Assembly (NCBI GenBank): GCA_035703635.1
Contig: DASSXV010000087.1
Location: 26,655 to 90,654 of the forward strand
DNA: 64,000 nt
Direction of reading: 5' to 3'
DNA from: Trueperaceae bacterium
GTDB taxonomy: Bacteria; Deinococcota; Deinococci; Deinococcales; Trueperaceae
The position numbers and the translations under genes are program-made. This document shows, in pieces, positions 3,252 through 61,382 of this stretch (position 1 is the stretch's first letter; every line of letters begins with the position of its first letter). Under the pieces are notes generated by a model. The model worked only from the letters and a program-made list of their open reading frames with translations, ran no database searches and had not been told where the DNA came from.

Positions 3252-3325
3252 GGTGTTACCTCCGGCGGGCTAACCCGAAGCGGGCGCCCCAACTGATGCA
3301 TAGGGTACAGGGCGCAACGTCTCGT

Positions 3326-4210
3326 TCACCGCCTGAACGAGACTTGGGCGGATACTCCGCCCCACTCGACACCGAGCGGGCTGTAGAGGTCGAAACCGGC
3401 AGGCAGCAGGATCACCCCAGCTACGGGTGAGTCCGGCGCCACGCTGTCGGCGGTACCCTCCTGCAGCAGTAGGCGGTACGGGTAGCGCACCTCGAGTTCA
3501 CGGCTGCCTTGGGAGAAGCGCAGCGTGGCTTCCCAGGTGGTCGCCTCCGCCGCCACGAGCTGGAGCAGCAGCACGTTGTCGCTTGCTGCGCCGCTTAGCC
3601 AGGCCGCGTCAAGCGCGGCGTCGACCGCTGTCGTCAACTCGGGCCGCGCGAGCGGCAGTAGTGCAAGGTCGAGCAGGGTGAGGGCCACGGCGCCATCGTA
3701 GAAGCGCAATGCCGTCACCCCCGCGCCCAGCTCCGTTACCTCCCAAGCCGCGTCCGCGCTGGCGGCCAGGGCGGGTGGGGGCGCCCCTGGGAACGCCTCG
3801 TTGGCGAGCGCGACCTCGCTGCCGTTGGCTAGCCACAGCGCAGCGCCTGAGGCGCTCGGTTCCACGCCAAGGTACTCGAGGGCGTCGAGCGGCGCCCACC
3901 ACTCGGCCCCGTACTGAATGACGGGAGCCGAGAACGAAACGTCGATCGGTCCGCCTCCAGTTGGGCGCTGCATGAGTCCGGCGGTCGAACCTGCGAAGAA
4001 CGTGACGACACCGAGCGCGCCGCGGAAAGTGAGCACGCCGTCCACTGCCGTTGCCACCGCGCCAGCTGCACGCGCCAAGTCGGTAAGTTCGGCATAGGCT
4101 GCGCCTGCGTGCCGCGCCGCTCGCACGCTCCTACCGCCTTGCGCCACCACGCTTGCCGCTGGCAGCGCAAGGAGCAGCAAGGCAGCGATAATGCGGCGCT
4201 TGGATGGCAT
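3326..4210 (-). CDS. Hypothetical exported protein
   Basis: Signal-peptide-like N-terminus (MPSKRRIIAALLLLALPAASVVAQ); TAGGCT -10 box 7 nt upstream of ATG 4210. Confidence 0.65.
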   Translation of the reverse strand: MPSKRRIIAALLLLALPAASVVAQGGRSVRAARHAGAAYAELTDLARAAGAVATAVDGVLTFRGALGVVTFFAGSTAGLMQRPTGGGPIDVSFSAPVIQYGAEWWAPLDALEYLGVEPSASGAALWLANGSEVALANEAFPGAPPPALAASADAAWEVTELGAGVTALRFYDGAVALTLLDLALLPLARPELTTAVDAALDAAWLSGAASDNVLLLQLVAAEATTWEATLRFSQGSRELEVRYPYRLLLQEGTADSVAPDSPVAGVILLPAGFDLYSPLGVEWGGVSAQVSFRR

Positions 4211-45177: not shown

Positions 45178-45734
45178 GGCCGCACCTCGCCGCGTTACTC
45201 CTAGCGCTGCTACTCGGCGGCGGCGCAACGGCGCAGAGTTACTACCCCGCCGCTGCCGGCTACAGCTGGACGTACTCGTCGGGCGAGACGCAGTCCATGA
45301 CCGGCCCGCGCGACCTACAGGGCCGCAGCGTCATGGTTCTAACGCACTACCTCGAGGGCGTGCCCGTCTCGGAGGACTACCTCGCCTACCGCGCCGATGG
45401 CGTCATCAGCTACGGTTCTGCCTCCGGCGGCCAGCTCTTCCCTTACGACCCACCGATCCTCGTCTACCCAGCCGAACCCCTCGCGCCCGGCAGCAAGTGG
45501 ACGAGCACGACGCAACTCCCCGGGTTCAGCCTCACCCTCGACTCCGAGGTCGTCGGCCTGCGCGGGGTAGCGACGCAAGCTGGGCGCTTCAACGCCTTGC
45601 TCATCCGCCAGACGACGCTGACTAGCAACGGCGGGCAGACGTTGCTCGACATCTACTTCGTTCCAACGGTCGGCATCGTGCGCTTCGTGACGCAAGACGG
45701 CACGACCATCGACTTGATCGAGAAGAGCTTCTAG
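45174..45734 (+). CDS. Hypothetical exported protein
   Basis: Signal peptide; 'SYYP...GYSWTYS' and 'V.T.AG.F' beta-rich fold. Confidence 0.7.
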   Translation: MRPHLAALLLALLLGGGATAQSYYPAAAGYSWTYSSGETQSMTGPRDLQGRSVMVLTHYLEGVPVSEDYLAYRADGVISYGSASGGQLFPYDPPILVYPAEPLAPGSKWTSTTQLPGFSLTLDSEVVGLRGVATQAGRFNALLIRQTTLTSNGGQTLLDIYFVPTVGIVRFVTQDGTTIDLIEKSF

Positions 45735-47002
45735 GCCCCCTGCGGCACGACGCGACGCCACAGCTCGTCGAACGTGCCAGCGACCAGCGCCTCGCGGATG
45801 TCTTGCATGAGGCGCGCCATGAACCGCAGGTTGTGGATGGTCGCTAGTTGCGGCCCGAGCGCCTCGCCCGCCTTGAAGAGGTGGCGCAGGTAGGCGCGCG
45901 TGAAGGTCCGGCACGTGTAGCAGTCGCAGCCGCTCTGCACGGGGCCGAGGTCGTCCTTGAATCGCGCGTTGATGATGTTGAGGCGGCCGTTACGCCCGCC
46001 GTCGCCCAAGTTGGGGCGCACTAGCAGCGTGCCCGTGCGGGCGTTGCGCGTGGGCATCACGCAGTCGAAGGTGTCTATGCCGCGTGCCACGGCCTCGAAG
46101 ATGCTCGGAACGTCACCTATGCCTAGCAGGTGTCTAGGCTTGTCAGGCGGCAGGAGCGGCAGCGTCCAGTCGAGGATGGCGTACATATCCGCCCGCGTGG
46201 CGCCGAGGTTCCCGCCCACCGCGAGGCCGTCGAAGCCCATCGCGCCGATGACGGTGGCACTATCGATCCGTTGGTCGCGGAACGCGCCGCCTTGCACGAT
46301 GCCGTAGAGCGCCTGGCGGTACCCGTGCAACGGAGCGCTAGCGCGAAACGCCGTTAGGCTGCGCTGCGCCCAGCGGTGCGTGCGCTCGAGCGAGCGCCTG
46401 GTGTACGCCTCGTCGTGCAGTGGGCTAGTGCACTCGTCGAAGGCGAGGACCATGTCTGCCCCGAGTTGGCGCTGAACCCTGATAGAAGTCTCGGGATCGA
46501 AGCGGTGCTTCGAGCCGTCGATGTGGCTCTTGAACTCGACCCCGTCCTCGTCGACCTTGACCATGCCAGCCGCCGCGGCTAGCCGCCGTTGCCCCGCCTT
46601 CTGGTCCTCACCAGGGAAGATGTTGCCGATCTTCCCTACCCCGTGCTCGATCGCGGCGCCGAGGGAGAAGACCTGGAAGCCGCCCGAGTCCGTTAGGATC
46701 GGCGCGTCCCAGTTCATGAAGCGGTGCAAGCCCCCGTGAGCGGCTACGAGCTCGGCTCCTGGCCGCAGGTAAAGGTGATAGGTGTTGGCGAAAAGTACCT
46801 GCGTGCCCGTCTCCGCCACGGCAGCGGGCGTGAGGCTCTTGACGGTCGCTTGCGTACCTACCGCCACGAAGGCAGGCGTGTCGACGCAACCGTGAGCAGT
46901 GGTGAGGCGCCCAACGCGCGCCGTCGCCTGTGTCTGCGTTACCTGGAAATCAAGTCCAGCGGCTGGCGTCTCGGTTGGCGTGGTGCTCGAAGCAGATGGC
47001 AT
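45731..47002 (-). CDS. tgt: tRNA-guanine transglycosylase
   Basis: NTYHL, LTDSGGFQVFSL, DECT, PRHLLGIG, FDCVMPTRNAR and CDCYTC motifs. Confidence 0.95.
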   Translation of the reverse strand: MPSASSTTPTETPAAGLDFQVTQTQATARVGRLTTAHGCVDTPAFVAVGTQATVKSLTPAAVAETGTQVLFANTYHLYLRPGAELVAAHGGLHRFMNWDAPILTDSGGFQVFSLGAAIEHGVGKIGNIFPGEDQKAGQRRLAAAAGMVKVDEDGVEFKSHIDGSKHRFDPETSIRVQRQLGADMVLAFDECTSPLHDEAYTRRSLERTHRWAQRSLTAFRASAPLHGYRQALYGIVQGGAFRDQRIDSATVIGAMGFDGLAVGGNLGATRADMYAILDWTLPLLPPDKPRHLLGIGDVPSIFEAVARGIDTFDCVMPTRNARTGTLLVRPNLGDGGRNGRLNIINARFKDDLGPVQSGCDCYTCRTFTRAYLRHLFKAGEALGPQLATIHNLRFMARLMQDIREALVAGTFDELWRRVVPQGA

Positions 47003-47060
47003 GGTTCCGCCCCTCGCGGGCCTGTCATCCTATCAGACAGCACTGGTAGGTTCTTCACTC

Positions 47061-47085
47061 ACATGTCGCCCTCATGTGCTATAGT
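47061..47085 (+). promoter_or_regulatory. Extended -10 promoter (TGcTATAGT) with adjacent ACATG-N7-CATGT inverted repeat
   Basis: TATAGT at 47080-47085, ~28 nt before the first riboswitch aptamer. Confidence 0.5.
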
Positions 47086-47112
47086 CTCCGGCTAGAGGGC
47101 AACTGCCTTCTG

Positions 47113-47184
47113 CTTGGACGCTGAGAAACCTGCCTCGTATGTGGGCGCTTGAGACAGGTGGAGCGAGTAGCGCAACCGGCCAGG
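47113..47184 (+). ncRNA. c-di-GMP-II riboswitch aptamer 1
   Basis: P1 CTTGG/CCAGG; GAA-stem-TGGGCGCTT-stem-TGGAG; 3' AGTAGCGCAACCGGC with pseudoknot GCGCT/AGCGC. This matches the class II pattern (TGAA..TGGGCACTT..TGGAG..AGTAGTGCAACC.GC). Confidence 0.85.
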
Positions 47185-47279
47185 TGAGTGTCCCCTCATC
47201 TACCAAAGCCGTCAACGTCCGAGCGCGGGTCCCACATGACCCGCAGCCCGAGTCGTTCGGGCACCGACGCTTAGTCGGA

Positions 47280-47351
47280 CTTGGAAGCTATGAAGTCTGT
47301 TCTGCATTTGGGCGCTTGGAACAGATGGAGCGAGTAGCGCAACCGGCCAAG
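47280..47351 (+). ncRNA. c-di-GMP-II riboswitch aptamer 2
   Basis: P1 CTTGG/CCAAG; GAAGCTATGAAG TCTGTTC..TGGGCGCTT..GAACAGA TGGAGCGAGTAGCGCAACCGGC; stem sequences covary relative to aptamer 1. Confidence 0.9.
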
Positions 47352-47435
47352 GGACACGCGAACAGGCAACCATAGCGTTGCTATATAGCGGAGGAGCCGG
47401 ACGAGCGCCCAGGACCAAGCGGGTCCAGGGATGCC

Positions 47436-48446
47436 ATGACGGGACGAGCTAAGCGAAACGCGGGTCACTCCAACGAACGGGCGTACGGCGCTCGGTTCAG
47501 CTTCGCCGTGCTTATCATTACCGCCATGCTCGTGCTTAGCGGCTGCAGCACCACGGAAGTCCTTACTGCCACCAACCACGACGCTGAGACGCGCACCGCT
47601 AGCCTCCAGAGCAGCACGATGTTCGGCGCCTTCACGTACGGCGGGGTATGGCAAGGGCTCGAGCCCATCCTGCAGCTCGAGTTAAACTTGGGCCGCCGCC
47701 TCGATGTCGTGCACTGGTTCACGAACTGGGAGAACCCCTACTTCCCCGACCTCGTCACCCTGGCGTCCCAAGGCGGACGCAAGCCGTTGATCAGCTGGCA
47801 GAGCCACAACCAGTCCAACGCTGACATCGCTGCGGGAGTCTACGACGACTACATCCGCGACTGGGCTCGCGGCGCAGCCACGGCAAGCGGCCCGATCTAC
47901 GTGCGGCTCTTCCCCGAAATGAACGGCAGCTGGACGAACTGGAACGGCGACCCAGCCGCGATGGCCGCCGCCTGGCGCCATGTGGTCGACCTCTTCCGCC
48001 AGGAGGGCGCCTACAACGTGCAGTGGGTGTTCAGCCCGAACGTAACGGACTCGCCACGCACCGCAGAGAACGCCATGGAGCTCTACTACCCGGGCGACGA
48101 TTACGTCGACGTCCTCGCCCTGGACGGCTACAACTGGGGCGAAACGCTTCCTGAAACCGGCGGTTGGCGCTCGTTCGAGGACGTCTTCCGCGTGGGTTAC
48201 GACCGCATCACGGCGATCGGCCCGCAACCAGTTTGGATCGCCGAGTTCGCTAGTTCAGACGAGGGTGGCGACAAGAGCGCTTGGGTGCGCGACATGTTCG
48301 CGACCACCGGCTTCCAGCGCATCGAGGCGCTCATCTGGTTCAACGAGGACAAGGAAGCCGACTGGCGGATAGACTCAGACGCCGCCACGCTCCAGGCCTT
48401 CCGCGACTCGCTGTCAAGCGGCACCGTGCTAGCCAGCACGCGCTGA
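47436..48446 (+). CDS. GH26 glycoside hydrolase lipoprotein
   Basis: Lipobox LSGC; RLFPEMNG (acid/base Glu), YYPGDDYVDVLALDGYN, WIAEFA (nucleophile Glu) and WFN motifs. Confidence 0.88.
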   Translation: MTGRAKRNAGHSNERAYGARFSFAVLIITAMLVLSGCSTTEVLTATNHDAETRTASLQSSTMFGAFTYGGVWQGLEPILQLELNLGRRLDVVHWFTNWENPYFPDLVTLASQGGRKPLISWQSHNQSNADIAAGVYDDYIRDWARGAATASGPIYVRLFPEMNGSWTNWNGDPAAMAAAWRHVVDLFRQEGAYNVQWVFSPNVTDSPRTAENAMELYYPGDDYVDVLALDGYNWGETLPETGGWRSFEDVFRVGYDRITAIGPQPVWIAEFASSDEGGDKSAWVRDMFATTGFQRIEALIWFNEDKEADWRIDSDAATLQAFRDSLSSGTVLASTR

Positions 48447-48562
48447 TAAACGCGCAAAGCACCTAGCCAGTTTCTCAACGCAGGCGTCTTGAGAACCAAC
48501 GGTGTGAGGTGTTACCTTCGTATGGAACCTCACAGCGGACCTCCGTCCGCCAACCGGACTGG

Positions 48563-49648
48563 ATGAAAGAGACCGCTATCACCCCCACCAGGCTGTTGTG
48601 GCCCCGCCCCAAGTGGGCCCTACGGTTGCGCATCGTGGCAACTGGCCTGGCGACGGCCCTGATCTTGGCGGCATGCTCGGAACCAACCCGCGTCCACAAG
48701 GACGTGTTCGCTGGCGACACTCCAGTGCTCGGAGCGTTCGTGCCGTCCGGGGTGTGGAACGACTTGAGGCCGCTAAAGGCGCTGGAAACGCGCGTCGGTG
48801 GGTCGTTCGCGTTAGCGCACTGGTACACGTCTTGGGACCTCCCGTACGATCCCGTGCCGGTCAACAACCTGCTCGCCCACGGCCGCATCCCGTTCGTCAC
48901 CTGGCAAGCGCACCGTCAATCGTTGCCTGACATCATCTCCGGGCGTTACGACAGCTACATCAAGACCTGGGCTCACGGCGTCCGCGACGCGGCAGGCGTC
49001 GTCTACGTGCGGATCTTCCCGGAGATGAACGGCGACTGGGCCCCGTGGAACGGCGACCCGGAGGCCATGAAGGCCGCCTGGAAGCACGTCGTCGACCTGT
49101 TCAGGGCCGAAGGCGTCCGCAACGTCAAGTGGGTCTTCACCCCTAACGTCACCGACGAGCCGCGCGTGCCAGAGAACGCCATGGAGCTCTACTACCCTGG
49201 CGCAGACTACGTCGACGTGATCGGCCTCGACGGCTACAACTGGGGAACTACTAGGCCGAACATCGGGTGGCGCACATACGAAGAGGTGTTCGAGGCGGGT
49301 TACGACCGCATCACTAGCCTGGGCGACCAACCCGTGTGGCTAGCAGAAGTCGCGTCCGCCGAACTCGGTGGCGACAAGGGCGGTTGGGTCGATGACATGT
49401 TGACCTCGACGGCGTTCCCCCGCATCAAGGCCATCGTCTGGTTCAACGAGGACAAAGAAACCGACTGGCGCATGGAGAGTTCAGCCGGATCGCTCGACGC
49501 TTTCAGGAAGCACTTCGAGGTTCTGGCGGAGGCGGAACAGGCCATCGAAGAGGCGGGCCTCGAGGCGACTCGGGTAGGCGGAACTTTGGCTACGTCAAGC
49601 GTCCGCGCAGGAGCAGGGGGCGATGGGCGTTACATTGAGCGCAAATGA
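48563..49648 (+). CDS. GH26 glycoside hydrolase lipoprotein (paralog)
   Basis: Lipobox LAAC; RIFPEMNG, YYPGADYVDVIGLDGYN and WLAEVA motifs; start could alternatively be 48509. Confidence 0.88.
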   Translation: MKETAITPTRLLWPRPKWALRLRIVATGLATALILAACSEPTRVHKDVFAGDTPVLGAFVPSGVWNDLRPLKALETRVGGSFALAHWYTSWDLPYDPVPVNNLLAHGRIPFVTWQAHRQSLPDIISGRYDSYIKTWAHGVRDAAGVVYVRIFPEMNGDWAPWNGDPEAMKAAWKHVVDLFRAEGVRNVKWVFTPNVTDEPRVPENAMELYYPGADYVDVIGLDGYNWGTTRPNIGWRTYEEVFEAGYDRITSLGDQPVWLAEVASAELGGDKGGWVDDMLTSTAFPRIKAIVWFNEDKETDWRMESSAGSLDAFRKHFEVLAEAEQAIEEAGLEATRVGGTLATSSVRAGAGGDGRYIERK

Positions 49649-50934
49649 ACAACGAAACTGGCCGCAACCGCCGTCGCCGTAACCAGCTCGGTCGCGGTCT
49701 TTGTATCTGGCTAGCCGTCTTGCTGGGGGTCCCGGCCGCGGCGGCACAGGCACACGCGCCTGACCCTGCTTACCTCACCCCGCGACCGCTGAGCCGCACC
49801 ACCTACCAGCTCGACGTGCTCGCCTCCGGCATCTACGCCCCCGTCGACGCCGTGCCCCTGGACGACACTGGCGCCATCCTAGTCGTCACCCTCGACGGCA
49901 CCGTCATGCGCTATCAAGATGGTGAGGTCGACCCGCGGCCGTTCCTCTCGCTTACCGGCCGCGTGACTGGCCTGCTCGGGGAGCAGGGCCTGTTCTCGAT
50001 CGCCCTCGAGCCGGCCAAGCATGCCGCCGCGCTCGGCGGTCCCCGCCACCTGATCGCCGCTTTCACCGAGGCGGGCACGAACGATCTGGTAGTCGCTGCG
50101 TACCCGCTCCTCGCAGACCTAAGCGGGGCGCTGCGGGGAGCCGAGTCCATCATCCTGCGCCAAGCCGTTCCGGAGCCGTTCCACCACGGCGGCCAGGTGG
50201 CGTTCGGCCCGGACGGCCTGCTGTACGTAAGCATCGGTGACGGTCAGCGCGAGGTCGCATACCTGCACGTCCAGCCGCACGTCGCCCAGGACCTGCGTTC
50301 CTTGCGCGGGAAGGTACTGCGCATAGATCCGTTCACTGGCGGCGCAAACCGTGCGTACACCGTCCCGGCCGACAACCCCTTCACCGCGCAAAGCGATCCG
50401 AAGGCCGCCTCAGCAGGTGCGCGGGGCGAGATCTGGGCGTACGGGTTCCGCAACCCGTGGAAGTTCAGCTTCGCGGCCTCTGACGGCGCTTTGCTCCTCT
50501 CGGACGTTGGTGAGGACCGCTGGGAAGAGATCGACGTGGTCGTCAGAGGCGGCAACTACGGTTGGCCTGCCCGTGAGGGGCCAGAGTGCCTCCTGCATCT
50601 CGAGGACGGCTCCCCTGTCGCGCCTGATTGCGAGGACCTCGACCTCGTCGCGCCCGCGGCCTCTTACGGCCACCCGGCGATAGATCCTAGCGGGGGGTTC
50701 TCCGTGACCGGAGGCGTGGAGGTCATCGACCCGACGCTGCCGTCGCTGGTTGGCAAGTACGTGTTCGGAGACTTCGTCACGGGACGCATGTGGACGCTAG
50801 ACAGGGCGACCAGCGAGGTGAACCTGATCATGCAGGGAGTCGGCGCCATCTCAAGCTTCGCCAACGACTCGAGCGGCGCCCTCTTGGTCACGTTGATTGA
50901 TGGCACCCTCGCGCGCATACGCGAAGTGCATTAG
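49645..50934 (+). CDS. PQQ-dependent glucose/sorbosone dehydrogenase family protein, exported
   Basis: EQGLFSIA, HHGGQVAFGPDGLLYVSIGDG, LRGKVLRID, EIWAYGFRNPWK and GGNYGWP motifs. Confidence 0.9.
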   Translation: MNNETGRNRRRRNQLGRGLCIWLAVLLGVPAAAAQAHAPDPAYLTPRPLSRTTYQLDVLASGIYAPVDAVPLDDTGAILVVTLDGTVMRYQDGEVDPRPFLSLTGRVTGLLGEQGLFSIALEPAKHAAALGGPRHLIAAFTEAGTNDLVVAAYPLLADLSGALRGAESIILRQAVPEPFHHGGQVAFGPDGLLYVSIGDGQREVAYLHVQPHVAQDLRSLRGKVLRIDPFTGGANRAYTVPADNPFTAQSDPKAASAGARGEIWAYGFRNPWKFSFAASDGALLLSDVGEDRWEEIDVVVRGGNYGWPAREGPECLLHLEDGSPVAPDCEDLDLVAPAASYGHPAIDPSGGFSVTGGVEVIDPTLPSLVGKYVFGDFVTGRMWTLDRATSEVNLIMQGVGAISSFANDSSGALLVTLIDGTLARIREVH

Positions 50935-50959: not shown

Positions 50960-53788
50960 TTAGGTCTGGTCGGCAGGGGTGGAGCGCGGCATGGTTGGCA
51001 CGTAGCTCTCGCCGTACAGCCTGTTCCTGATGGAGTCGTAGAGCGGCACGTCTTTGATCTGGAAGCTCTGCACTAACTCGGCGGTCACGAAGTAGGCCTG
51101 ACCAACCGTGACGGTACCGTCTGCCACGAGGTTGGTGACACCTAGCAGCGCACGCTCTTCGTTCGTGACGTTGGCGGGGTCCTCGCGGAAAGCCGCGATC
51201 GTGGCAGCTAACGCCTTGGCGAGCGGCTTGAGGTCGTCGATGGCCATGACCAGCTCACTGTGGCGTTGGCTGATCTTGCCCCTGACCACCCCTTCAAGCG
51301 GGTTGATGTAGCGGGCGTAGGCGAAGTGCTCGTCGTCGCCGTCCGGCTGCGCCTGCGCCCACGCGAGCTTGGCGGCGCCCGCGCAGATGGAGAAGTCTGG
51401 ATCGAACACGGAGAACGTGCCCGCGAAGAAGGTGCTGTTGGCGAACGGAGACAGTGGATCGACCGAGATGGCCTTGATGAGGGTAAGGGCGTCGTTCGTG
51501 ACTTGCGAGAGCCCAAGGTCGCCCGTGGGTCCGATCGCCAACGGATCCAGGTACGACTCGTTCAACAGCACGCGCAGGAGCAGGTCTGGCGAGACGTCGT
51601 AGGCCGTAGCAGCCAGCTCGATGTTCGCCACGAGCGGCGCTAGGCGCGCCAGCACGAGCAGGCCCCAAGCCGACAGCGGCGTGTAGTCCGCCACCTGCCC
51701 GTCGAGCAGGCGTGGCCCGCTGGCTGGGCGAGCTACGGCGTCGACGCCGCAGTATGCCGACACGCGCCGCGGACCCTGCTTGGCCCCGGTCACCTGCAGG
51801 CCGAGGCTCGCTAACGGCGAGTTGAGCAGGTCGTCGATGCGCTGGGCAACCGCCTCGCTCGGAACGTCTACTTCGGTGACGGCGGCACTTTCGCTCGACG
51901 CTATCGTCTCTTCCGCTGCTTCCGCTACTTCCGCTACTTCCGCTACATCCGCTACATCCGCTGCGCCAGCGGCGCCTAGCTCCGCTTGGCCCGCAGCGCC
52001 TTCTGGCGCGGCGTTCGCGGCAGCTACAGGGGTCTCACCTGCCGGGCTACTACCGCCGACGTCCGGCTCAGCGTCCGTTAGGTCGTTCCCCTTAACGGAC
52101 AACGGCAGGTTCATGTGCTCACTTCGTAGCACCGGGACGGAACCGTTGATGAGCCGCCACGTGTCTCGGTAACCGGGACGCGTTTCGCCAGCACTCCAAG
52201 CGGTGACCACGAAGACGCTCGAGGCAACCAACAACAGCGCTCCCGTGCCGCCGAAGAACCTAAGTTGCGTCCTGCCCGTGGTCTTGGCATGCGGCCTTTC
52301 CCACGTGATGGTGGTGCGCGGATCCAACTCGTGGCGCTTAGAGAAGCTGCGTACCGCGCGCACTCCCCCAGTCACGAAGGTGATCGCGTTGAAGATGCGC
52401 AGCACCCCAAGCGCAAGCACGGAGCGAGCCCCCTGGCGCGCCACCCACCCTCCAAGCCGCCAGTTCTTGAACCCCAGGCCAACGCCAAGGCGCAGGAAGC
52501 CCCAGACCGCAAGCAGGCCCGTCATGAACACGTCAACACCCAACCAGACGAGCAGCGCCTCCAATGGCATGCCGTGACCTGGCAGCGCGAAGTTCAGGCC
52601 CATCGCTAACGGAAGCATCACGAGGAGCAGGAGGAGGCCGAGGAGGTTCTCGAAGTGTGCGGCCAACAAGGTGAAGCGCACGTTCGCCCGCAGCCCGCGC
52701 CACGTTTCCGGCACGAAGAAGCGCTTGAGGCCGTTCTCCACCCCACCGCCGTTCCAGCGCTCGATCTGCCTGAGGTAGCCTGGCAGGCTCAGCGGGTCGT
52801 CCGTGAACATGAGCGCCTCGCTGACGAACCTGGCGTTGCCGCCGCGCCGCATGGTGATGGGCGACTCACCCGTCACCGTCCCGACGTCCACTAGTTCACC
52901 AGCTACGAGCGCACTGAACCCCCGCTCGCGCAGCTCGTCGACGCTGATCGCAGTCTCCGTGACGGGTCCGTTCTGCACCGCCAGCGTGAAGTCGTGGTCC
53001 TCCGTCAGGGTGTCAGACGGCATCGGGAAGCACTCGCGCCGCGTGGTGAAACCGCAGCCAACCACGGTGTAAAGGCGCGAGTTACCGAAGATCTTGCTCG
53101 CACCGAACCGCGCCGTCTGCCCGCTGCGCAGCACCGCCGAGATGGCGTACTCGGCCGACCGCGCCCGGTGGATCAGGCCGCCGACGGGCTTCCCTCGGCC
53201 CGGACTGGACGACAGTACGGCGCCAGACTGGATGGCGTAGTCCTCGAGCACGAAGCGCGCCTTAGCGCCTCGCCCCAGCTTCCTCAAGCGGTAGAAGTTC
53301 GCCTTGAGGCCGGCGAGGAAGTCCTCGTGAAAGACGGTATCGCCGTCAACTAGGAGCACCCGCTCCGTGTTGAGCAAGCCGCCATCGAGCGCCACGTTGA
53401 TGCTGTCTGACTTCGAGATCGGCTGGGCGTGCTCCACGACCGCGACTATTGGGCCGTTCGTGAGCAGCCAGCGCTCGTAGGTAGCGGTCGCTCCAGGCAC
53501 GTGACCCTTGTCGATGGCCCTGTAACCGTACTCCGTCAAGGTCCGCCTTACGACTTCGCCCGTCGCGTCGGAGCCACCGTTGATGCTCACGACGATCTCG
53601 TCGATCGGCGAGCTCTGCCTCAGGAGCGACGACAGTGCGGCTGCGGCGCTCGCCTCTTCGTTGAACATGGGCGAGACGACGCCAACGCGGTCCGGCCCGA
53701 TCACGGGCACGGACGAGTCTTTCGTTAGGCTTAACAAGGCGTTCGCGATCACCGTCGGGGTTGCGAAGAGGCCAGGGATGAACGGCAT
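50960..53788 (-). CDS. Processive GT2 polysaccharide synthase fused to a C-terminal SLT/GH23-like domain
   Basis: PMFNEE, VDGD, LTEDHD, QIERW, TM helices, acidic/Ala linker, then AATAYDVSPDLLLRVLLNESYLDPLAIGPTGDLGLSQV. Confidence 0.82.
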   Translation of the reverse strand: MPFIPGLFATPTVIANALLSLTKDSSVPVIGPDRVGVVSPMFNEEASAAAALSSLLRQSSPIDEIVVSINGGSDATGEVVRRTLTEYGYRAIDKGHVPGATATYERWLLTNGPIVAVVEHAQPISKSDSINVALDGGLLNTERVLLVDGDTVFHEDFLAGLKANFYRLRKLGRGAKARFVLEDYAIQSGAVLSSSPGRGKPVGGLIHRARSAEYAISAVLRSGQTARFGASKIFGNSRLYTVVGCGFTTRRECFPMPSDTLTEDHDFTLAVQNGPVTETAISVDELRERGFSALVAGELVDVGTVTGESPITMRRGGNARFVSEALMFTDDPLSLPGYLRQIERWNGGGVENGLKRFFVPETWRGLRANVRFTLLAAHFENLLGLLLLLVMLPLAMGLNFALPGHGMPLEALLVWLGVDVFMTGLLAVWGFLRLGVGLGFKNWRLGGWVARQGARSVLALGVLRIFNAITFVTGGVRAVRSFSKRHELDPRTTITWERPHAKTTGRTQLRFFGGTGALLLVASSVFVVTAWSAGETRPGYRDTWRLINGSVPVLRSEHMNLPLSVKGNDLTDAEPDVGGSSPAGETPVAAANAAPEGAAGQAELGAAGAADVADVAEVAEVAEAAEETIASSESAAVTEVDVPSEAVAQRIDDLLNSPLASLGLQVTGAKQGPRRVSAYCGVDAVARPASGPRLLDGQVADYTPLSAWGLLVLARLAPLVANIELAATAYDVSPDLLLRVLLNESYLDPLAIGPTGDLGLSQVTNDALTLIKAISVDPLSPFANSTFFAGTFSVFDPDFSICAGAAKLAWAQAQPDGDDEHFAYARYINPLEGVVRGKISQRHSELVMAIDDLKPLAKALAATIAAFREDPANVTNEERALLGVTNLVADGTVTVGQAYFVTAELVQSFQIKDVPLYDSIRNRLYGESYVPTMPRSTPADQT
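51912..51965. repeat. 9-bp tandem repeat x6 (TCCGCTRCN) in the GT2-SLT linker
   Basis: tccgctgct tccgctact tccgctact tccgctaca tccgctaca tccgctgcg; encodes AADVADVAEVAEVAEAAE. Confidence 0.9.
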
Positions 53789-56590: not shown

Positions 56591-56668
<78 letters not shown>

Positions 56669-61307: not shown

Positions 61308-61382
61308 TGGCTCGGCGGGTAGGATTTGAACCTACGACCAATCGGTTAACAGCCGATCGCTCTGCCGCTGAGCTACCGCCGA
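61308..61382 (-). tRNA. tRNA-Asn(GTT)
   Basis: TCGGCGG acceptor stem; anticodon arm ATCGG-CTGTTAA-CCGAT; GGTTCAAATCC; G discriminator + CCA. Confidence 0.97.

What the first reader, a model, noticed from the sequence alone, without database searches (positions are those of the whole stretch)
47113..47435. Tandem c-di-GMP-II riboswitches with visible switching strands
Seen: two 72-nt aptamers share a 24-nt identical block (47159-47182 = 47326-47349) but have different, compensatory stems (CCTGCCTC/GAGACAGG vs TCTGTTC/GAACAGA). Each has a downstream anti-aptamer strand: CGTCCGAGC (47216-47224) pairs with 47112-47120, and GAACAGGC..CATAGC (47360-47376) pairs with 47287-47302. GTGTCCC (47188-47194) can pair with GGGACAC (47351-47357), linking the two units, and three small hairpins fill the spacer. 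Established: class II c-di-GMP riboswitches occur in Clostridia, Deinococcota and Chloroflexi, and tandem aptamers can sharpen dose response. Inference: this is a coupled two-aptamer switch controlling GH26 genes. No U-rich terminator is evident, so ON/OFF logic cannot be called from sequence.
Basis: partly seen in the sequence, partly recalled or inferred. Interest (0 to 1): 0.75.

Follow-up and report, generated by a model that had tools for sequence, protein, structure and literature searches.

The report
Tandem c-di-GMP-II riboswitches before GH26 genes
Two RNA sensors for the bacterial signal c-di-GMP sit one after the other in front of two sugar-cutting enzyme genes in a Truepera-like bacterium; this is a real but already known kind of arrangement that most likely switches the genes off when the signal is high.

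Summary
The core finding holds. Rfam gives two full-length c-di-GMP-II (RF01786) hits at 47107-47190 (69.7 bits) and 47274-47357 (73.1 bits), against a gathering score of 53.5. They lie in the 433-nt leader of a GH26-GH26-GSDH gene row.

Ten other Trueperaceae-type genomes carry the same doublet.

- **Not supported:** The conserved switching strand of aptamer 2 is 47396-47411. It overlaps the 5' arm of a hairpin that covers the ribosome-binding site.

In single-aptamer orthologues the same strand forms a U-tailed terminator or a ribosome-binding-site hairpin. The logic is therefore most likely OFF at high c-di-GMP.

The output of aptamer 1, and whether the two aptamers are truly coupled, stay open.

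Tandem c-di-GMP-II riboswitches are already in print: 59 doublets and 9 triplets (PMC9481103). This is a new member of a known kind, of modest interest.

The parts
47058..47085 (+). Promoter-like site: CTCACA, 16-nt spacer, TG-extended TATAGT. A transcript would start near 47092.
   Evidence: 1 site found against 0.2 expected. The TGTGCTATAGT block is shared by most doublet leaders.
47094..47111 (+). H0 hairpin (AGAGGG / CCTTCT) abutting P1 of aptamer 1.
   Evidence: helix 1: all 6 pairs show changes on both sides; 89% of cells paired.
47107..47190 (+). Aptamer 1, c-di-GMP-II. P1 core 47112-17/47180-85; P2 47119-21/47163-65; P3 47128-35/47152-59. Pseudoknot strands GCGCU 47145-49 and AGCGC 47169-73.
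   Evidence: 69.7 bits, model positions 1-84 of 84. helices 2-5.
47186..47201 (+). Small hairpin GAG..CUC, whose arms extend into the P1 3' strand of aptamer 1. Its loop is S1 (UGUCCC, 47189-94).
   Evidence: Predicted folds. S1 is conserved and complementary to S2.
47208..47224 (+). Switching (anti-aptamer) strand of aptamer 1. GCCG 47208-11 pairs with CGGC 47177-80. UCA and CGUCCGAGC 47212-24 pair with 47112-24.
   Evidence: GCCG:CGGC paired in 44 of 44 cells; outer helix 74% paired, with CG:5 / AU:4 at one pair; pair probability 0.93-0.94 in the unconstrained ensemble.
47225..47244 (+). Linker hairpin HL1 (GCGGGUC / GACCCGC). It has no U tail.
   Evidence: present with aptamer 1 free or held in its bound fold; variable in sequence.
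47246..47262 (+). Linker hairpin HL2, GCCCGA-N5-UCGGGC. Nearly invariant and specific to doublets.
   Evidence: helix 10: 95.5% paired; the exact motif occurs only in the window leader and 9 of 121 loci, all doublet leaders of this family.
47264..47278 (+). Linker hairpin HL3 (CCGAC / GUCGG) abutting P1 of aptamer 2.
   Evidence: helix 11: 3 of 4 pairs show changes on both sides..
47274..47357 (+). Aptamer 2, c-di-GMP-II. P1 core 47280-84/47347-51; P2 47287-88/47330-31; P3 47295-302/47319-26. Pseudoknot strands 47312-16 and 47336-40. S2 (GGGACAC) is its 3' end, 47351-57.
   Evidence: 73.1 bits, model positions 1-84 of 84. helices 13-16. for S2.
47358..47395 (+). Variable spacer holding a hairpin (GCAAC 47366-70 / GUUGC 47377-81).
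47396..47411 (+). Conserved switching strand of aptamer 2. GCCGG pairs with CCGGC 47343-47. GAGCGCCCA 47403-11 pairs with the P3 loop UGGGCGCUU 47309-17.
   Evidence: RNAalifold finds the GCCGG:CCGGC helix; it pairs the downstream GCGC with the aptamer's 3'-side GCGC (47337-40), not with the P3 loop; 96% and 80% of cells paired, against 33-48% for the whole tested structure when slid. The same block is present in single-aptamer orthologues.
47405..47434 (+). Hairpin covering the ribosome-binding site (AGGGA 47427-31). Its 5' arm GCGCCC overlaps the switching strand.
   Evidence: the full hairpin forms when aptamer 2 is held in its bound fold. helix 17: 68% paired.
47436..48446 (+). GH26a, 336 aa, a lipoprotein (LSGC lipobox). 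Lichenase-like GH26.
   Evidence: E 4.7e-46 to the GH26 module of C. thermocellum endoglucanase H. The PEMNG and IAEFAS motifs align. The start codon is aligned in all 11 leaders.
48509..49648 (+). GH26b, a paralogue 55% identical to GH26a. It probably starts at a later ATG and has a LAAC lipobox.
49645..50934 (+). Glucose/sorbosone dehydrogenase-like gene whose start overlaps the end of GH26b.
   Evidence: PF07995, 1.2e-30. Homologues lie in the same loci as the GH26 gene in 8 of 121 loci.

Best explanation
The leader of a GH26-GH26-GSDH operon in a Truepera-like genome (Deinococcota) carries two complete c-di-GMP-II riboswitch units in series.

**Shown:**
- Both aptamers match the family model.
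- Both are kept in 11 related genomes.
- Each has its own conserved downstream strand that can pair with aptamer parts instead of the aptamer fold.

**Inferred for aptamer 2:**
- Without ligand, strand 47396-47411 pairs with the aptamer's P3 loop and CCGGC. The GGG of the ribosome-binding site is then less covered.
- With c-di-GMP bound, the pseudoknot and P1 hold those aptamer parts. The strand instead completes hairpin 47405-47434 over the ribosome-binding site, and translation of GH26a goes down.

**Inferred for aptamer 1:**
- Ligand binding releases 47186-47224, a C-rich stretch of about 40 nt.
- The output is not a canonical terminator.
- I take it to act as a second, independent OFF step, possibly through Rho loading. 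The pair would then give a steeper, 'pseudo-cooperative' response.

**Net effect:** high c-di-GMP shuts off secreted lichenase-like glycanases, which fits keeping an exopolysaccharide intact.
For: **Family identity**
- Two RF01786 hits above the gathering score.
- All 10 other doublet loci also have two hits, 57.7-81.7 bits.
- The aptamer-plus-linker structure pairs in 84.7% of cells, against 37-41% for slid controls. P1 and P3 show compensatory changes.

**Switching strands**
- 78.9% of cells paired, against 33-48% slid.
- Conservation peaks at GCCG (0.98) and the anti-2 strand (0.78), between poorly conserved spacers at 0.40-0.66.

**OFF logic**
- In single-aptamer orthologues upstream of the same GH26 gene, the homologous strand is the 5' arm of a hairpin.
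- In L041 and L031 that hairpin is followed by a U tract.
- In L019, L046, L067 and L080 it is a hairpin just before the start codon.
- In the unconstrained folds of L041 and L080 the strand pairs with the aptamer loop instead.
- In the window, the two G's of the ribosome-binding site are 0.5/0.4 unpaired with the aptamer free and 0/0 with it held in its bound fold.

**Gene link**
- A GH26 homologue lies downstream in 19 of 121 loci, with tgt on the other side in 11.

**Precedent**
- Same-class tandem c-di-GMP-II units are predicted to act pseudo-cooperatively (PMC9481103, passages read).
Against: - Equilibrium folds do not show a clean opening of the ribosome-binding site across orthologues. 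There is a weak trend in 5 of 11, a marginal one in 1, no change in 4 and a reversal in 1. The four-state model of the whole leader is inconsistent.
- No terminator-like site lies after either aptamer. HL1 forms whether or not aptamer 1 is held in its bound fold. Aptamer 1 therefore has no visible output element.
- The C-rich tract is only about the 95th percentile of the window background.
- The switching helices touch invariant aptamer bases. Most support is therefore conservation plus wobble-tolerant changes, with about one independent compensatory event each.
- No ligand binding or expression data exist.
Confidence: 0.6

Rival explanations
1. The two aptamers form one coupled device with a single output. 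S1 (47189-94) pairs with S2 (47352-57) and extends the short P1 of aptamer 2 across the linker. This helix can form only when aptamer 1 is in its ligand-bound fold, because the ligand-free helix 47112-24:47212-24 encloses S1. Binding at aptamer 1 would then license aptamer 2 and hairpin formation over the ribosome-binding site. That would be true cooperativity.
For: - Six contiguous S1:S2 pairs in 11 of 12 doublet leaders. One position reads U-A in 6, U-G in 1 and C-G in 4.
- Duplex energies are -11.3 to -16.5 kcal/mol in those 11. They beat shuffles at p<0.05 in 10 of 12.
- The S2 motif is absent in 8 of 9 true single-aptamer orthologues.
- HL2 is invariant and found only in doublets.
- Forcing S1:S2 costs less with aptamer 1 in its bound fold (0-4.6 kcal/mol) than in its free fold (0.8-16.4) in 9 of the 10 orthologues that carry both anchor motifs. 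L100 is the exception at 7.3-8.1 against 0.7-2.8.
Against: - Coupling free energies derived are negative in 4 of 11 orthologues and positive in 7, ranging from -1.9 to +5.5 kcal/mol.
- Cognate S1:S2 duplexes are only slightly better than non-cognate ones: -13.6 against -12.1.
- The C-G variants fall in one clade, so they count as about one compensatory event.
- The anchors were chosen by motif.
- MAFFT alignments did not place S1 in register, so the tool-based counts could not be used.
- L051 lacks the motif.
Confidence: 0.25
2. Aptamer 1 is a duplicate on its way out. It still looks like an aptamer but has no regulatory output, and only aptamer 2 controls the operon.
For: - No terminator or ribosome-binding-site element is tied to aptamer 1.
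- In L071 the first aptamer has decayed. Rfam finds only the second one, and nhmmer scores the first at 39.6 bits against 78.6 for the second.
Against: - Aptamer 1 scores above the gathering threshold in all 11 genomes, and its conservation is 0.91.
- Its P1 and P3 show compensatory changes.
- Its own switching strand is maintained, with a compensatory change.
Confidence: 0.08
3. The switch is ON with ligand: c-di-GMP binding raises GH26 expression.
For: - In L033 the ribosome-binding site is predicted to be more open with the aptamer held in its bound fold.
- Thermodynamic models are inconsistent overall.
Against: - In L041 and L031 the terminator-type hairpin uses the strand that the ligand-free aptamer would otherwise hold.
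- The hairpins over the ribosome-binding site in L019, L046, L067 and L080 have the same geometry.
Confidence: 0.1
4. The two aptamers sense different ligands and form a two-input gate.
For: - Variant classes of this fold exist in Rfam (GAG and GCG), and L026 carries a GAG-type hit.
- Aptamer 1 differs from the consensus at model positions 18 and 30 (my reading).
Against: - Both aptamers score best with the canonical model, not the variants.
- They share an identical 24-nt block that covers the conserved 3' core.
Confidence: 0.04

Closest known systems
c-di-GMP-II riboswitch aptamer (Rfam RF01786)
   Same: - Full-length matches to all 84 model positions for both copies.
- P1-P2-P3 are kept.
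- The pseudoknot strands are complementary.
- 30 and 31 of the 34 strongly conserved model positions match (my reading).
   Different: - The pseudoknot reads GCGC/GCGC instead of the model's GCAC/GUGC, a compensated change.
- P1 is short, at 5-6 pairs, and each aptamer is preceded by a hairpin that abuts P1.
- The host genome is high in G+C, and no U-tailed terminator follows either aptamer.
Tandem c-di-GMP-II riboswitches (Sherlock et al. 2022, PMC9481103; passages read)
   Same: Two aptamers of the same class sit in one leader. That paper reports 59 doublets and 9 triplets and predicts pseudo-cooperative action.
   Different: - Most of their cases are upstream of a surface-anchor gene (COG4932) in Paraclostridium.
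- Here the host is a Trueperaceae bacterium and the genes are GH26 glycanases.
- The aptamers are 83 nt apart, with three linker hairpins and a conserved complementarity that bridges the two units.
- I could not read their supplement. I cannot say whether this locus is among their 59 doublets.
Triple-tandem c-di-GMP-I riboswitch Bc3-5 of Bacillus thuringiensis (PMC4759541; start of abstract seen in the listing)
   Same: Several complete c-di-GMP riboswitches lie in series in one 5' UTR.
   Different: - It belongs to class I, which is an unrelated fold.
- It is a Firmicute system, and the platform details are not comparable.
Tandem glycine riboswitch (listed as 'Dual Aptamer' under 'One Expression Platform' in Table 1 of PMC9481103)
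   Same: It is the model for what the S1:S2 reading would mean: two like aptamers that talk to each other and share one output.
   Different: - No inter-aptamer tertiary contacts are known for c-di-GMP-II.
- Here each aptamer also has its own switching strand.
- The coupling is unproven.

Membership tests
c-di-GMP-II riboswitch (RF01786) | Covariance-model score at or above the curated gathering score, over the full model | tested here: met
   69.7 and 73.1 bits against a gathering score of 53.5. Model positions 1-84 of 84 for both, not truncated.
c-di-GMP-II riboswitch (RF01786) | P1, P2 and P3 helices kept through compensatory change | tested here: met
   for both aptamers:
- P3 is 93% and 99% paired, with both-side changes in 1 and 4 pairs.
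- P1 is 86% and 84% paired, with both-side changes in 2 pairs and 1 pair.
- P2 is 85% and 91% paired.
c-di-GMP-II riboswitch (RF01786) | Pseudoknot between the P3 loop and the 3' joining strand | tested here: inconclusive
   GCGCU and AGCGC are complementary in 55 of 55 cells for each aptamer (helices 5 and 16). They never vary within this set. Relative to the model consensus the change is compensated. That the pseudoknot is a defining feature is recalled, not taken from a call.
c-di-GMP-II riboswitch (RF01786) | Binds c-di-GMP | not testable with these tools
Both copies score better with the canonical model than with the GAG or GCG variant models of the same clan.
c-di-GMP-II riboswitch (RF01786) | Sense-strand position in a 5' leader | tested here: met
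   - A promoter-like site lies at 47058-85.
- Both aptamers are on the + strand.
- The start codon at 47436 is conserved in the alignment.
- The next ORF upstream is the divergent tgt gene.
Tandem same-class riboswitches with separate expression platforms ('pseudo-cooperative', PMC9481103) | Two complete aptamers of one class in one leader | tested here: met
   two hits in the window and in each of the 10 orthologous loci.
Tandem same-class riboswitches with separate expression platforms ('pseudo-cooperative', PMC9481103) | Each aptamer has its own expression platform | tested here: inconclusive
   - Aptamer 2 has a switching strand plus a hairpin over the ribosome-binding site.
- Aptamer 1 has a conserved switching strand but no terminator or ribosome-binding-site element.
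Cooperative dual-aptamer riboswitch with one platform (glycine type) | Structural contact between the aptamers that links their folding | tested here: inconclusive
   S1:S2 complementarity is kept in 11 of 12 doublet leaders, with about one compensatory event. Model coupling energies are of mixed sign.

The most novel reading that the evidence does not exclude
The doublet is not two independent switches. It is a hierarchical, truly cooperative two-site c-di-GMP sensor.

- The ligand-free fold of aptamer 1 locks away S1.
- Ligand binding at aptamer 1 frees S1 to pair with S2.
- That pairing extends the 5-bp P1 of aptamer 2 across a structured linker, which includes the invariant HL2.
- Aptamer 2 is thereby primed to bind ligand and to close the ribosome-binding site.

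This would be the first cooperative dual-aptamer architecture for a cyclic-dinucleotide riboswitch.
Probability: 0.2. Interest if true: 0.6.

Novelty: new member of a known kind. Interest (0 to 1): 0.3.

Why it matters
It adds a well-conserved, high-G+C Deinococcota example to the known tandem c-di-GMP-II riboswitches. It also links c-di-GMP sensing to secreted lichenase-like GH26 enzymes, which hints at control of exopolysaccharide turnover.

The family of leaders collected here shows one anti-aptamer strand reused with three outputs:
- a U-tailed terminator;
- a hairpin over the ribosome-binding site;
- a duplicated unit with no evident output.

This makes it a compact natural series for studying how expression platforms turn over. 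If the bridging helix proves functional, it would be a tractable model for RNA cooperativity.

Tried and rejected
rejected as not conserved.
- **S1 as an anti-Shine-Dalgarno strand:** S1-region duplexes with the ribosome-binding site are no better than composition-matched shuffles in all 11 leaders, p 0.11-0.59.
- **Pairing between the two switching strands (47216-24 with 47396-403):** it appears in the window's constrained folds, but by eye it is kept in only about 4 of 11 orthologues. I treat it as a by-product of sequence similarity.
- **A small ORF in the linker (ATG 47236 to TAG 47272-74):** the ATG is shared only with L119, so I do not count it as a leader peptide.
- **Complementarity of S1 to the start region AUGACGGGAC, and of 47269-74 to 47451-56:** present only in the window or its closest relative.
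- **The simple terminator scanner on L031 and L041:** found nothing. Direct folding showed hairpins followed by U tracts.
- **Whole-leader four-state thermodynamic model:** no consistent effect on the ribosome-binding site and no consistent cooperativity.
- **End-anchored realignment to test S1:S2 with the counting tool:** failed, because MAFFT shifted the ends.
- **PDB search with the 942-aa GT2+SLT protein:** no hit.

Full report
**1. What is in the sequence**

- A gathering-threshold Rfam scan of the whole window returns four matches: two tRNAs and two c-di-GMP-II aptamers (RF01786).
- The aptamers lie at 47107-47190 (69.7 bits, E 1.4e-13) and 47274-47357 (73.1 bits, E 1.5e-14). Both are on the + strand and cover model positions 1-84 of 84. 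The gathering score is 53.5.
- Reading against the model, aptamer 1 matches 30 and aptamer 2 matches 31 of the 34 strongly conserved positions.
- Two of the mismatches in each aptamer are a compensated change in the pseudoknot strands: GCGC/GCGC instead of GCAC/GUGC.
- No U-tailed terminator is found in 46500-48000. One promoter-like site lies at 47058-85.
- The folding energy of the whole leader is only marginally better than shuffles: z -1.98, with 6 of 100 folding as well.

**2. Context**

- The aptamers lie in the 433-nt gap between a divergent tgt gene (45731-47002, minus strand) and a row of three genes:
  - a 336-aa GH26 protein at 47436-48446;
  - a paralogue 55% identical to it at 48509-49648;
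  - a glucose/sorbosone dehydrogenase-like gene at 49645-50934.
- GH26a matches the GH26 module of Clostridium thermocellum endoglucanase H over residues 70-329 (E 4.7e-46). The PEMNG and IAEFAS motifs align.
  - That this module is a lichenase, and that these motifs hold the two catalytic glutamates, is recalled and comes from no call.
- Both proteins carry lipoprotein-type signal sequences.
- A 942-aa GT2 plus SLT protein converges on the operon. It has no relative of solved structure by sequence.
- c-di-GMP-activated mixed-linkage beta-glucan exopolysaccharide is known in rhizobia (PMC5567048, start of abstract seen). Control of a glucanase by c-di-GMP is therefore biologically sensible. 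The substrate here is unknown.

**3. Relatives**

Many are Trueperaceae, Thermaceae, Bacillota and Chloroflexota.
- The window leader is 92.4% identical over 500 nt to L119, a MAG titled Truepera radiovictrix. Nine further loci align across both aptamers. The window is therefore from a Truepera-like genome.
- All 10 of these loci have two RF01786 hits above threshold.
- A GH26a homologue follows the aptamers in 19 of 121 loci, and tgt lies on the other side in 11.
- Nine of those 19 loci have a single aptamer.
- L071 has a decayed first aptamer: nhmmer scores it at 39.6 bits, and Rfam does not call it.
- By nhmmer, 18 of 121 loci have two aptamers within 300 nt. L072 adds one more by Rfam.

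**4. Structure by comparison**

On the alignment of 11 doublet leaders (A1):

- The aptamer-plus-linker structure pairs in 84.7% of cells, against 37-41% for slid controls.
- Compensatory changes are seen in H0, both P1s, both P3s and HL3.
- HL2 (GCCCGA-N5-UCGGGC) is nearly invariant. Its exact motif occurs only in these doublet leaders: the window plus 9 of 121 loci.

**5. Switching strands**

- Aptamer 1:
  - RNAalifold and direct counts show that its CGGC pairs with an invariant GCCG at 47208-11 in 44 of 44 cells.
  - In 7 of 11 unconstrained folds this is a helix of 9-15 bp.
  - In L042 and L029 the corresponding strand instead pairs with the P3 loop.
- Aptamer 2:
  - The conserved strand is 47396-47411. 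GCCGG pairs with CCGGC (96% of cells), and GAGCGCCCA pairs with the P3 loop (80%).
Its pairing is at background level: 49.6% against 34-47%.

**6. Logic**

- The conserved block recurs in single-aptamer orthologues, with two kinds of output:
  - In L041 and L031 it is the 5' arm of a hairpin followed by a U tract.
  - In L019, L046, L067 and L080 it is the 5' arm of a hairpin just before the start codon.
- In the unconstrained folds of L041 and L080 it pairs with the aptamer loop instead.
- This is the geometry of an OFF switch.
- In the window, the same strand overlaps the 5' arm of hairpin 47405-47434, which covers AGGGA 47427-31.
- Equilibrium models give only a weak and uneven signal. The ribosome-binding site is more open without ligand in 5 of 11 leaders, marginally in 1, unchanged in 4 and reversed in 1.
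- The call of OFF therefore rests mainly on homology.

**7. Aptamer 1 output and coupling**

- HL1 forms in both states and has no U tail.
- The released stretch is C-rich: 14-17 C against 7-12 G in 40 nt, in 11 of 11 leaders. That is only about the 95th percentile of the window background.
- S1:S2 complementarity:
  - It is kept in 11 of 12 doublet leaders, with one covarying position.
  - It beats shuffles in 10 of 12.
  - The S2 motif is absent from 8 of 9 singlets.
  - The helix is predicted to form more easily when aptamer 1 is in its bound fold, in 9 of 10 orthologues.
- Against coupling:
  - Coupling energies are negative in 4 and positive in 7 of 11.
  - The freed strand of aptamer 1 is predicted to invade aptamer 2 in 7 of 11.
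- Coupling is therefore possible but not shown.

**8. What is known**

- Tandem c-di-GMP-II riboswitches are in print. PMC9481103 reports 59 doublets and 9 triplets, mostly Paraclostridium upstream of COG4932 genes, and predicts pseudo-cooperative action (passages).
- PMC12452182 reports tandem c-di-GMP riboswitches enriched in Deinococcota (passages). Truepera radiovictrix is in its genome list, but I found no per-locus table.
- Searches for 'Truepera' with 'riboswitch' and for 'c-di-GMP-II' with 'Deinococcus' found no description of this leader.
- The supplement of PMC9481103 could not be read. It may list this locus.

**9. Verdict**

This is a genuine, conserved tandem c-di-GMP-II riboswitch and a new member of a known kind. 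The bridging helix and the invariant linker hairpin are the only unusual features.

Noticed in passing
L071:2489-2790 (minus strand): An orthologous GH26 leader in which the first aptamer has decayed. The core is changed: Rfam finds only the second aptamer, and nhmmer gives 39.6 bits against 78.6. S1, S2, HL2 and the switching strands are nevertheless kept.
   Followed up: partly
L041 and L031, downstream of their single aptamers: The same conserved anti-aptamer strand forms the 5' arm of a hairpin followed by a U tract. In L019, L046, L067 and L080 it forms a hairpin just before the start codon instead. The expression platform has turned over around a fixed switching strand.
   Followed up: partly
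L026:2492-2575 (minus strand): A Trueperaceae MAG carries a hit to the variant family c-di-GMP-II-GAG (RF03169, 45.7 bits). A canonical aptamer lies about 2.4 kb away.
   Followed up: no
L072:2448-2683 and 3271-3354: A Truepera sp. MAG has another doublet with closer spacing (150 nt between aptamer starts) and a third aptamer about 670 nt downstream. The gene context was not examined.
   Followed up: no
window 50960-53788 (minus strand): A 942-aa protein joins GT2 glycosyltransferase matches to a C-terminal SLT lytic-transglycosylase domain and converges on the riboswitch-controlled operon. It has no relative of solved structure by sequence. C-terminal homologues lie next to the GH26 gene in L033, L041 and L031.
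   Followed up: partly
window 47236-47274: A 12-codon ORF (ATG in the HL1 loop to a TAG at the edge of aptamer 2). It is shared only with the closest relative, L119, so it is probably not a leader peptide.
   Followed up: yes
window 56591-56664 (+) and 61311-61382 (-): Two tRNA genes found by the Rfam scan.
   Followed up: no
L062, L082, L107 (Bacillota and an untitled 'metagenome' record): Doublets in which the two aptamers are almost adjacent (starts 82-90 nt apart). This is a different architecture from the Trueperaceae doublets, whose starts are 162-188 nt apart.
   Followed up: no
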